Assembly (NCBI RefSeq): GCF_016026235.1
Contig: NZ_CP065613.1
Direction: 5' to 3' (one strand)
DNA length: 64,000 nt
Origin: Escherichia coli
GTDB lineage: Bacteria; Pseudomonadota; Gammaproteobacteria; Enterobacterales; Enterobacteriaceae
Positions 16,172 to 19,100 of this stretch are shown piece after piece. Both the position numbers and the translations under genes were made by a program. The notes under the pieces are model-generated. The model worked only from the letters and a program-made list of their open reading frames with translations, was not told the origin of the DNA and ran no database searches. Numbering within the stretch: position 1 is the stretch's first letter; the number at the start of each line of letters is the position of its first letter.

Positions 16172-19100
16172 CATGCTTGACAACTTAATAGGGGCACCCC
16201 CCCACGATATCCGTCGTACCCTGATACGCCGAGGAATCGTTGTTAAGAGTCAGGATCCCGGTACCCAGTTTTGTCAAATCACCGCTACCGCTGATACTGT
16301 GCGTCATCGCCCAGCTACGCTCAGTGGAGATGGTGAGCAGGCCATTATTGATAACGGAAGCATCACCCAGGTTTTTCTGCTCGTTGACGCTGAGCGCGCT
16401 GCCTGTATCAATGTTGAATTGCCCCACAAAGCGGCTATTATCGCCATCCAGCTCTACATCTGTCCTGGCGGTTGCGCTCACGATACCCTTCCCGCTTATG
16501 CTATTACGCAGTTCGCCAGTCACGTTTTTTAGCGTTAACAGACCGTCATTGGCAATATTTCCTCTGCCTAACCCCTGCGTATTATCGAGGCTGACTTCCG
16601 CATTTGGGCTAACGCTGGTTAACGCATTGTAGCGTGCATTAAGCCCCTCGATAGCCAGCGTTCCCCCTGTAACATTCAGGTTTCCGCCACCTGTCAGTTC
16701 ACCCTGACTGATCCCACCTTTATTTACCGTCAGCGACCCTTCTTTGAACAAAACAGTCGAACCCATCTGCCCGGTGAATGTCTCTACCGTCTGCGTCGAT
16801 CCATTAAGATCGACGATGGCTGCGTTGCTGATGTTCAGTTCCCGGGTGTTGCCCAGCGCGCCATCCGCATCGGTACGTAATGTCCCCATCTGAACGTAGG
16901 TTGCCCCCTGATAGTCGTTCTGACCGTTGGAAAGCGAAACCTGTCGCACCGTATTGATTGCCAGATCCCCTTCACCGCCGATTTTTGCCGACATATCGGC
17001 CGTTGCGCCATAGGCTCCGCCATGTTCGGCTAACGTCAGCTTTTGCCCTCCATGGATGTTCAGCGCTTTCAGCCCATAGTTAACGTACAAACCATCACCT
17101 GGTGCGGTCGTGAGGCGGAATCCATAATCACCCTCGGCGACCACCGTTCCGTTTTGCGCAATGTGTAACGTTTTGTCCGCTTCCACCTCGTCGCCCTGTA
17201 AATCACGTAACGTTAATGAGCCACCCGACCCAATAACCGTTTGCGCCTTCACCAGTTGAACGCCGACATGGTTATCATCGTGTTCCAGCAAATTGAGCGT
17301 CGTCAGAGGGTTATTCGCCATGGGATCATTCCACGGTTTAGGCACGTCGATAAGCACGTCGCCCGTCCCGTTTACCTGATAGTTACGTCCTTTCCAGGTG
17401 TAGTCACCCGCGCCGACAACCAGCGTATCGACGCTGATATATCCCTCTGCAAGCGTCGCAGCAGGAATATCCGTATCGAAAATGAGCGTACCGCCATTCA
17501 TGGCCAGTCCACCAATGGATTGCTCTCCCACGTTTACCGATGTGGTATTTTCACTGTCAGACTGCAACATCGCGTGAGTAAGCGCAGCGGTGTTGTCGCG
17601 TTCCAGAGTGAAGGTACTGTCTTTCAGTTGGGCAACACCGGCGAATTCAGTCCCTGTTGCATGTGTAAAGCCAAACATCTTGTCGGAGGATGACAGCTGA
17701 ACTCGCATCAAGCCATCGCCTTTGAGCGCATTGGTCAGCGTGTAATCTCCTGCACTGTTCGTTGATGCGAGAATGTCGAGCGTACCGGGGCTTGCAATGG
17801 TTACTTCACTCGACCCCATGCCCGTTACCCCATCTGCCGTATGAGACGCAATGGTCAGGAGGCCGTCATTGACCAGCGTTTTACCGCTATAAGTATTCCC
17901 TGCATTGAACACCGTATGGCCTGCCGTCTTTATCGTCACCTGTAATCAGCATATCGACCTGGTAGCCGGCATCACTGTTATTAGTATGATTAAAGACAAA
18001 AACACCTTCGCCAGAGCCAAACTCTACTTTCGTCGCGTTGGTGATAAATCCGGCATCCGCCGCCGCCTCACCGTGAGCTGCACCAATGTTTAGCGTTCCT
18101 ACAGCAGGTTCAAAAACACCTAAGTAAACTTCTCCACCTTCGACATTCAGCGTGCCGCTATTCGTCAGGGTTAACGTACCCGTACCAGATGTCCCTACGT
18201 ACATATTGAATGTTTCAAGAAGAGAGTTCTGCCCATCCACTCTCACGTCGCCCTTGCTTTTGTCATTGAGAGCTATCTGTGTATCACGCGCTTTAACTAT
18301 ACCTCCGGTGGTAATATTCAGTTCACCCGTGCCTAATACACCGACCTGTGTCAATTGGGCGTTAGTAGATGATGTCTTTAAATTCCAGAGACTATCCGTT
18401 GAAATATTAACTATCCCCTTACCGGAGGCATTTCCTCCGATAAATCCATAGCCCGTTGAATTAAGGGTGGCACCATTACTGACATTTACGATACCGCTAC
18501 CAAAATTACCGACATTGATACCCACAGTATCGAACGATGATGTCGCATCCATCAGGTTCAGTGTGCCGATACCGCTTGCTTTATCGCCCAAAAAAGTAAT
18601 ATTTTGCGATACAAACTTACCGCCATCGCTAATATTGAGATTTCCGACGCCCGCAACACCAATGGTGGTATAGACATTCTTATTGACCTCCCATATCCCC
18701 CCCGTGGTGATGCTAACCTTCCCGACGCCGGTTTCTCCATAACCGAGAGAGCTTCCTCCGTTGCTGACAACAAGCCCCTCATTACTGATATTCATTTCGC
18801 CGTGGCCGTCATAACCAAGATTAGTTCCGAGATTAGTGATAACGGAGTTCTTATCCTTAACAGTAATGTTGCCTGTGCCTGTTTCTTTCATCCCCGCAGT
18901 GATAATTCCCGAATCTACTTTACCTTCACGCGAGACATTAAGTTCACCGTCGCCAGCATCACCGATATAGATATAGCGGAAAGCTTCGCCCGTTCCGAGG
19001 AAATTCCAATGCCCTTTATCGGTCACGTTGACGACACCGTGGGAACCGTCCTGAACGCCCACCAATGAATATTCTTTGTTATTAATTAGTCCATTATTGG

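What the first reader, a model, noticed from the sequence alone, without database searches (positions are those of the whole stretch)
17887..17939. Additional internal frameshift in the autotransporter passenger domain
ORFs 17887..19917 and 16185..17939 overlap by about 50 bp in different frames, so a 1-bp insertion or 2-bp deletion separates them. With the 5' duplication and the IS insertion this makes three independent inactivating events in one large adhesin gene, suggesting relaxed or negative selection on expression.
Basis: seen in the sequence. Interest (0 to 1): 0.35.

Follow-up and report, generated by a model that had tools for sequence, protein, structure and literature searches.

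The report
Third hit in a dead adhesin gene
The frame break is real and comes from a 17-base deletion in an E. coli surface-adhesin (autotransporter) gene that a mobile element and a 64-base duplication had already disabled, so it is ordinary decay of a dead gene.

Summary
Observation confirmed. Minus-strand ORFs 17887..19917 and 16185..17939 overlap by 53 bp in different frames. The cause is a 17-bp deletion at window 17923|17924, not a 1-bp insertion or 2-bp deletion, though the net frame effect is the same.

The gene is the E. coli orthologue of K-12 pseudogene yneO, the "ECSE_1600 family autotransporter". It lies between hipBA and lsrK, spans 13161..20080 and is on the minus strand. Reversing three lesions restores a 1806-aa ORF that matches NCBIfam NF011422 end to end. 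The three are a 64-bp tandem duplication, the 17-bp deletion and an ISEc20 insertion.

None of about 4,100 complete E. coli genomes carrying the gene has the deletion. Independent draft assemblies of the same clone do have it, so it is not an artefact.

Near-identical isolates preserve the intermediate states. Thirteen contigs have the IS only, one has IS plus duplication, and at least six have IS plus duplication plus deletion. The order is therefore IS, then duplication, then deletion. The deletion struck a gene that already lacked its beta-barrel and stopped at codon 49. That fits neutral decay. It is not a programmed frameshift and not phase variation.

The gene is broken in different ways in 9 of 13 sampled strains, and its frequent disruption was reported in 2008. 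This is ordinary and of low interest.

The parts
13161..20080 (-). Whole pseudogene: orthologue of E. coli K-12 yneO (b4696), an ECSE_1600-family type Va autotransporter, interrupted by three lesions
   Evidence: Synteny hipA-hipB-gene-lsrK-lsrR. Pfam finds ESPR, AC_1/Pertactin and the Autotransporter beta-domain.
17923..17924 (-). Junction of the 17-bp deletion (the finding). The + strand lacks CATCATGGATCACTTTT. This is gene nt ~2093-2109, codons ~698-703, and turns ...GDDKDGKVIHDAGHTVF... into ...GDDKDG-RPYGVQCREYL*
   Evidence: Pairwise alignments to EC22 and O157:H7 493/89, multiple alignment of 14 alleles, sister isolates L016-L022 that retain the 17 bp.
17887..17939 (-). 53-bp overlap of the two ORFs created by the deletion. 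It has no slippery heptamer and no homopolymer of 4 or more
17924..19906 (-). N-terminal passenger fragment (ORF 17887..19917). Gene callers record it as a 663-aa product (STL95467.1 / WP_244461921.1)
16197..17923 (-). Middle passenger fragment (ORF 16185..17939). Gene callers record it as a 575-aa product (STL95463.1). It ends in IS-derived codons ...GGCPY*
19907..20034 (-). Exact 64-bp tandem duplication (2.0 copies, 100% identical) within codons ~16-58. It shifts the frame
   Evidence: TRF, alignments. Absent from all 3,973 matching complete E. coli genomes.
19934..20080 (-). Remnant 48-codon ORF from the native ATG (20078-20080). It carries the ESPR signal-peptide extension and ends at the stop created by the duplication
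   Evidence: P0048
14748..16196 (+). ISEc20 (IS110 family, 1449 bp; transposase 14975..16171) inserted in the gene's G8 homopolymer. It separates the passenger from the autochaperone and beta-barrel
   Evidence: (NF033542, 238 bits)
14744..14747 (.). Left part of the split poly-C (gene-strand poly-G) run: 4 C
   Evidence: The intact run is C8 in most alleles and C9 in the closest IS-free relative.
16197..16203 (.). Right part of the split poly-C run: 7 C
13161..14747 (-). C-terminal fragment with autochaperone, linker and beta-barrel (ORF 13161..14675). Gene callers record it as a 503-aa product (STL95456.1)

Best explanation
The overlap marks a 17-bp deletion in the passenger-coding part of an E. 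coli type Va autotransporter adhesin gene, the yneO / ECSE_1600 orthologue. The deletion is a private mutation of one E. coli clone and was the last of at least three successive lesions.

Order of events:
1. ISEc20 inserted into the gene's G8 run and cut off the autochaperone and beta-barrel. That run may already have slipped to G9.
2. A 64-bp tandem duplication near the 5' end introduced a stop at codon 49.
3. The 17 bp were lost, probably by replication slippage or misrepair at minimal (1-nt) microhomology.

The gene could no longer make a secretable protein when the deletion arose. The deletion therefore has no function and was fixed neutrally. It is ordinary pseudogene decay in a gene that is lost again and again across E. 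coli.

Shown: the lesion, its uniqueness, the order of events, and restoration of the ORF when the lesions are undone. Inferred: the mutational mechanism and the neutrality.
For: - The 17-bp gap relative to orthologues lies inside the overlap.
- Removing one 64-bp copy, restoring the 17 bp and removing the IS gives an 1806-aa ORF ending ...GVKYSW. It matches NF011422 over its full length, 4133 bits against a cut-off of 2335, with ESPR, autochaperone and beta-barrel domains.
- A junction query finds 4,110 E. coli genomes and none has the deletion. The junction 38-mer is absent from the species-representative genomes and the JGI metagenomes.
- The truncated 663-aa product carrying the frameshift tail occurs on 6 contigs. 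One is a separate draft assembly that is 100% identical over 9.9 kb, so the deletion is real.
- Intermediates exist in near-identical genomes. IS only: 1282-aa product on 13 contigs; L016 differs from the window over about 19.8 kb by 1 SNP plus the two indels. IS plus duplication without the deletion: 1236-aa product, L022, 0 mismatches over 11.7 kb.
- Deletion without duplication was not found.
- The overlap has no slippery heptamer and no homopolymer.
- Species context: 9 of 13 sampled alleles are broken by at least 8 different lesions. K-12 yneO is an annotated pseudogene. Oshima et al. 2008 list ECSE_1600 as disrupted in MG1655, E24377A and O157 Sakai and absent from B2 strains (PMC2608844).
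Against: - Two large indels hit one 5.4-kb gene among isolates that differ by only about 0-2 SNPs per 12-20 kb. A uniform neutral indel rate would predict fewer, which leaves room for selection or local mutability.
- Against that, the gene was picked out for inspection because it has several lesions (ascertainment bias).
- Neutrality is inferred, not measured.
- The order of events rests on exact-protein look-ups and local identity, not on a whole-genome phylogeny.
- Raw reads could not be inspected.
Confidence: 0.9

Rival explanations
1. Adaptive silencing. After the IS removed the beta-barrel, the gene still encoded a Sec-exported, barrel-less 1282-aa passenger that burdens the periplasm. 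On this view the 64-bp duplication, and then the 17-bp deletion, were selected because they reduce that product. The deletion would remove what is still made by re-initiation at the TTG (19917), which lies 16 nt after the new stop and begins a classical signal peptide, MRKSSGLTTKFSRLTLGVLLALSGSVSG.
For: Two successive structural mutations occurred in one gene among isolates with almost no SNPs nearby. The IS-only allele keeps the ESPR signal and a long passenger ORF. The ORF after the duplication starts just upstream of the hydrophobic core and cleavage motif of the signal peptide.
Against: There are no expression or toxicity data. The TTG has no recognisable Shine-Dalgarno sequence upstream. 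The IS-only state is the commoner one in the collection, 13 contigs against 1 and 6, so it is clearly tolerated. Barrel-less alleles caused by frameshifts persist in K-12, O104:H4 and others. The gene was chosen for having several lesions.
Confidence: 0.07
2. Sequencing or assembly artefact: the 17 bp are present in the organism and were dropped in the assembly.
For: Raw reads were not available here, and long-read assemblies can carry indel errors.
Against: The identical deletion junction appears in the 4.56-Mb contig (GCA_900449985.1) and in separate draft assemblies (GCA_001907545.1, GCA_018228825.1), each 100% identical to the window. Sister assemblies from the same accession series (GCA_001907535.1, GCA_001907565.1) retain the 17 bp. 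A 17-bp loss in non-repetitive sequence is not a typical homopolymer error.
Confidence: 0.01
3. Programmed ribosomal frameshift, or a deliberately split gene, that yields a functional fused or two-part protein.
For: Two long ORFs overlap by 53 bp on the same strand, which is the superficial signature of a recoding site.
Against: Intact orthologues read through in one frame. The break is absent from 4,110 genomes and from sister isolates. There is no slippery heptamer or homopolymer. Translation from the native start already ends at codon 49. The downstream part lacks the beta-barrel because of the IS.
Confidence: 0.01
4. Reversible phase variation (a contingency locus) switching the adhesin off.
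For: The gene contains G6-G8 runs at which other strains carry +1 or -1 frameshifts. A 64-bp tandem duplication can in principle collapse back.
Against: The 17-bp deletion is not in a repeat tract and cannot revert. The IS insertion also blocks expression. No isolate of the clone has an intact allele.
Confidence: 0.01

Closest known systems
yneO (b4696; formerly ydeK/ydeU) pseudogene of E. coli K-12 MG1655
   Same: Orthologous locus between hipB and lsrK, with the same 5.4-kb autotransporter gene, annotated as a pseudogene. About 98% nucleotide identity.
   Different: K-12 is broken by a single +1 slip in a G-run at gene nt ~3954. The window allele has a 64-bp duplication, a 17-bp deletion and an ISEc20 insertion instead.
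ECSE_1600 of E. coli SE11 / NCBIfam NF011422 'ECSE_1600 family autotransporter' (AIDA-I-type, type Va)
   Same: The repaired window protein is 1806 aa and matches the 1806-position profile end to end at 4133 bits. It has the same architecture of ESPR, passenger, autochaperone and beta-barrel. The SE11 genome paper already records that the gene is disrupted or missing in many strains (PMC2608844).
   Different: SE11, EC71, PCN033 and others carry intact genes. The window copy cannot encode a full protein.
O157:H7 / O55:H7 allele of the same gene
   Same: Closest allele in complete genomes (99.0-99.6% identity across the fragments). It is also a pseudogene.
   Different: O157 is inactivated by its own 8-bp duplication (CGCCGATT) and an internal stop. 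It has none of the window's three lesions, so inactivation was independent.
ISEc20-disrupted alleles in E. coli EC22, SMN152SH1, SMN197SH3, 2014C-3011
   Same: The same IS lies in the same G-run of the same gene.
   Different: Different allele background (97-98% identity; IS 99.6%) and a different split of the C-run (5+4 against 4+7). No 17-bp deletion and no 64-bp duplication. Probably an independent insertion at a preferred target.

Membership tests
ECSE_1600 family autotransporter (NCBIfam NF011422; type Va, AIDA-I-like) | Full-length match to the family profile above its curated cut-off | tested here: met
ECSE_1600 family autotransporter (NCBIfam NF011422; type Va, AIDA-I-like) | N-terminal ESPR extended signal peptide, autochaperone and C-terminal 12-strand beta-barrel domain | tested here: met
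   PF13018 at 1-47, PF18883/PF03212 at 1332-1452, PF03797 at 1525-1784. The domains are now spread over separate fragments.
ECSE_1600 family autotransporter (NCBIfam NF011422; type Va, AIDA-I-like) | Conserved chromosomal position between hipBA and lsrK | tested here: met
ECSE_1600 family autotransporter (NCBIfam NF011422; type Va, AIDA-I-like) | Single uninterrupted ORF able to encode a secretable protein (a functional member) | tested here: not met
   Stop at codon 49 from the 64-bp duplication, frameshift from the 17-bp deletion, IS between passenger and barrel
Programmed ribosomal frameshift site | The frame break is conserved in orthologues | tested here: not met
   0 of 4,110 E. coli genomes. 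Sister isolates L016-L022 lack it. Intact orthologues are in a single frame.
Programmed ribosomal frameshift site | Slippery sequence at the frame junction | tested here: not met
   No X XXY YYZ heptamer and no run of 4 or more in the overlap
Phase-variable contingency locus (simple-sequence slippage) | The lesion lies in a simple repeat tract and is reversible | tested here: not met
   The 17-bp deletion lies in unique sequence with 1-nt microhomology
Decaying pseudogene (multiple-hit, neutral) | Disabling lesions relative to intact orthologues, acquired stepwise, with later hits falling in an already disabled gene | tested here: met
   Nested states in near-identical genomes: IS only, IS plus duplication, IS plus duplication plus deletion
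Decaying pseudogene (multiple-hit, neutral) | Absence of transcript or protein | not testable with these tools
   No expression data available

The most novel reading that the evidence does not exclude
The stepwise lesions are not neutral. On this reading they record selection to shut off a barrel-less, Sec-exported autotransporter passenger that stresses the periplasm. The 5' duplication would come first, then the internal deletion that shortens what is still made by re-initiation. That would make this small set of near-identical isolates a natural time series of 'clean-up' mutations after an IS hit.
Probability: 0.07. Interest if true: 0.35.

Novelty: already known. Interest (0 to 1): 0.1.

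Why it matters
It matters little beyond correct annotation. The three ORF fragments that have been given protein accessions (STL95467.1/WP_244461921.1, STL95463.1/WP_244461920.1, STL95456.1) are pieces of one dead gene. The site should not be taken for a recoding signal.

The modest added value is that public assemblies happen to preserve each intermediate state, so the order of three lesions in one pseudogene can be read directly. The G-runs of this adhesin gene also emerge as hot spots, both for slippage and for ISEc20 insertion. That helps explain why the gene is lost so often in E. coli.

Tried and rejected
- Exact-pattern scans for the deletion junction in genome contigs and metagenome contigs found nothing, so the deletion is not widespread.
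- An Rfam scan of 13000-21000 at E <= 0.1 found nothing, so no known RNA element or recoding structure is present.
- Paper searches for the assembly accessions found nothing. Searches for yneO/ydeK gave little beyond the SE11 genome paper.
- I tried to decide whether the G-run was in frame before the IS arrived, using flank C-counts in the window (4+7), EC22 (5+4) and six other ISEc20 copies. The counts fit no single target-duplication length, so this stays open.
- The hypothetical products 'deletion without duplication' (709 aa), 'deletion without IS' (1099 aa) and the fully intact allele (1806 aa) are not in the 15-billion-protein collection. Five of eight start-codon variants of the fragments were also absent.
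- I considered Shigella as the source because no complete E. coli genome exceeds about 99% identity. This was rejected. The source is an E. coli assembly (GCA_900449985.1), and one protein name points to serogroup O124. I did not verify that.

Full report
**1. The observation**

The ORF listing returns two minus-strand ORFs, 17887..19917 (676 aa) and 16185..17939 (584 aa). They overlap by 53 bp in different frames. Both translate to beta-helical autotransporter passenger sequence.

**2. What the gene is**

The region lies between hipA/hipB (11362-12968) and lsrK/lsrR (20611-23235). Megablast against 5,426 complete E. coli genomes finds the locus in most of them, annotated "ECSE_1600 family autotransporter". 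In K-12 MG1655 the orthologue is the pseudogene yneO, b4696.

The true start is the ATG at 20078-20080 (MNRIYRVIWNC..., an ESPR extended signal peptide). The stop is at 13161.

**3. What caused the frame break**

Alignments to E. coli EC22 and O157:H7 493/89 show a single 17-bp gap between window 17923 and 17924. The + strand lacks CATCATGGATCACTTTT. Only 1 nt of microhomology flanks it.

In the protein, ...GDDKDGKVIHDAGHTVF... becomes ...GDDKDG followed by 11 out-of-frame codons and a stop.

**4. Other lesions**

- An exact 64-bp tandem duplication lies at 19907..20034. It shifts the frame at about codon 40 and gives a stop at codon 49.
- A 1449-bp ISEc20 element sits at 14748..16196. It belongs to the IS110 family; the transposase matches NF033542 at 238 bits. 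It lies in a poly-C (gene-strand poly-G) run that is C8 in uninterrupted alleles. It separates the passenger from the autochaperone and beta-barrel.
- Removing one 64-bp copy, re-inserting the 17 bp and deleting the IS to leave C8 (or all 11 flanking C) gives an uninterrupted 1806/1807-aa ORF ending ...GVKYSW.
- That protein matches NF011422 over 1-1806/1806 with 4132.9 bits against a cut-off of 2335. It has ESPR (1-47), AC_1/Pertactin (1332-1452) and the Autotransporter beta-domain (1525-1784).

There are no further stops or frameshifts.

**5. Is the deletion real, and how widespread is it?**

- A 100-bp query centred on the junction matches 4,110 E. coli genomes. All of them carry the extra 17 bases (span 117, or split alignments). 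None has the deletion. The 3.7-kb query gives the same picture.
- The junction 38-mer is absent from the species-representative genome set and from the JGI metagenomes.
- The 663-aa truncated product with the frameshift tail (P0016 = STL95467.1/WP_244461921.1) is on record on 6 contigs. L014 (GCA_900449985.1, a 4.56-Mb contig) is 100% identical to window 11887-25878 and is evidently the source or the same strain. L015 (GCA_001907545.1) and L023 (GCA_018228825.1) are separate draft assemblies, 100% identical over 9.9 and 11.9 kb, with the same deletion and duplication.

The deletion is therefore a genuine mutation of one clone.

**6. Order of events**

I built the protein products expected for each hypothetical intermediate and looked them up by exact sequence.

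| State | Product | Result |
|---|---|---|
| IS only | 1282 aa, P0031 | on 13 contigs |
| IS + duplication, no deletion | 1236 aa, P0046 | on one contig, L022 (GCA_001907565.1) |
| IS + duplication + deletion | 663 aa, P0016 | on 6 contigs |
| Deletion without duplication | 709 aa | not found |
| Deletion without IS | 1099 aa | not found |
| Intact allele | 1806 aa | not found |

L016 (GCA_014155105.1, IS only) differs from the window across about 19.8 kb by one SNP inside the IS, the 17-bp gap and the 64-bp duplication. Three apparent mismatches at 19964-19970 are alignment-edge artefacts. L022 has 0 mismatches to window 16140-27878 apart from the 17-bp gap.

The order is therefore ISEc20 insertion, then 64-bp duplication, then 17-bp deletion. 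When the 17 bp were lost, translation already stopped at codon 49 and the beta-barrel was already detached. The deletion could have had no effect on adhesin production.

**7. A possible fourth, masked lesion**

The closest IS-free relative found is L025 (GCA_902503985.1). It shares the lineage's lsrA frameshift and shows about 5 SNPs in 21 kb. It has C9 at the homopolymer, a +1 frameshift giving a 1289-aa product.

The window has 4 C + IS + 7 C. Whether the run was C8 or C9 before insertion depends on how many C the IS duplicates or carries. EC22 (5+4) and six other copies (sums of 8-12) give no consistent answer. So "three" is a minimum.

**8. Rival readings**

- *Programmed frameshift.* Rejected. 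The break is not conserved, intact orthologues are in a single frame, the overlap has no slippery heptamer or homopolymer, there is no Rfam hit, and both upstream and downstream lesions preclude a product.
- *Phase variation.* The deletion is in unique sequence and cannot revert.
- *Artefact.* Rejected by the independent assemblies.
- *Adaptive silencing of a barrel-less passenger.* Not excluded. Two large indels in one 5.4-kb gene among isolates with about 0-2 SNPs per 12-20 kb is more than a uniform neutral rate predicts. Against this, the IS-only state is the commonest (13 contigs), similar barrel-less alleles persist in K-12 and O104:H4, and the gene was selected for inspection because it has several lesions.

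**9. Species context**

In 13 loci inspected, 4 alleles are intact: EC71, O9:H10 PEB20-37-A, PCN033 and Z0117EC0051. Ten of the 13 came from an even spread down the hit list. The other 9 are broken, by different lesions:

| Strain(s) | Lesion |
|---|---|
| K-12 and O104:H4 | +1 in a G-run at nt 3954 |
| NMBU-W12E19 | -1 in the same G-run |
| CUVET20 | +1 in G8 at nt 3830 |
| AR_0372 | +1 in G7 at nt 1313, plus a stop |
| O157:H7 | +8 bp, plus a stop |
| OkiPb01683 | -254 bp |
| E21845 | -10 bp |
| EC22 | ISEc20 |

Nei-Gojobori dN/dS is 0.13-0.20 for all pairs, including repaired pseudogene alleles. Window against O157 gives 15 synonymous and 9 nonsynonymous differences. The gene has therefore mostly evolved under purifying selection, and the inactivations are recent and recurrent.

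Oshima et al. 2008 already tabulated ECSE_1600 (1806 aa) as disrupted in MG1655, E24377A and O157 Sakai, intact in HS, and absent from B2 strains (PMC2608844).

**10. Verdict**

The mutation itself needs correcting to a 17-bp deletion, and the deletion can be identified as the last hit in an already dead gene. This is a routine pseudogene in a gene family whose frequent loss is documented, so novelty is "already known" and interest is low.

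Noticed in passing
window 14744-14747 and 16197-16203; loci L001, L029-L034: Eight ISEc20 copies were examined, at five distinct chromosomal sites. Every one sits inside a poly-C run, with 4-5 C on the left and 4-7 C on the right. This IS110-family (RNA-guided) element therefore seems to target C/G homopolymers. The G8 run of the autotransporter gene is such a target and has been hit in at least two allele backgrounds.
   Followed up: partly
L025 (GCA_902503985.1) position ~2759; corresponds to window 14744/16203: The closest IS-free relative has C9 instead of C8 in the homopolymer. This is a +1 frameshift giving a 1289-aa product. The window gene may therefore carry a fourth lesion, older than the others and now masked by the IS.
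   Followed up: partly
window ~24335-24338 (lsrA, ORF 23484..24452): lsrA, the ATPase of the autoinducer-2 ABC transporter, is split into 322-aa and 191-aa ORFs by a GA dinucleotide duplication (CCTGAGACG against CCTGACG in K-12, O157 and EC22). The whole lineage shares it, including the IS-free relative.
   Followed up: yes
window ~26867-26868 (lsrD): lsrD carries an extra AG dinucleotide relative to L025 (306 aa against 330 aa). This is a second lesion in the lsr operon of this clone.
   Followed up: partly
window 4356-5686: An IS2 element (1331 bp) is inserted in ydeQ, a gene of the neighbouring chaperone-usher fimbrial operon. A second adhesin locus in the window is therefore disrupted.
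   Followed up: partly
gene nt 1313, 3830 and 3954 of the autotransporter (window equivalents ~18768, 14744-16203 and ~14620): Poly-G runs (G7, G8, G6) inside the gene account for five of the nine disabling lesions seen in the 13-strain sample. They look like slippage hot spots rather than a documented phase-variation system.
   Followed up: partly
L002 5839-5846 (O157:H7 493/89); corresponds to window ~14591: The O157:H7/O55:H7 allele is the closest to the window allele (99%). It is inactivated independently by an 8-bp tandem duplication (CGCCGATT) and an internal stop at codon 1667.
   Followed up: yes
whole window; protein P0048: No complete RefSeq E. coli genome exceeds about 99% identity to most of the window. 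The window matches GCA_900449985.1 exactly. One source name for the duplication-derived 48-aa ORF is 'Escherichia coli O124', which hints at an enteroinvasive lineage. I did not verify this.
   Followed up: no
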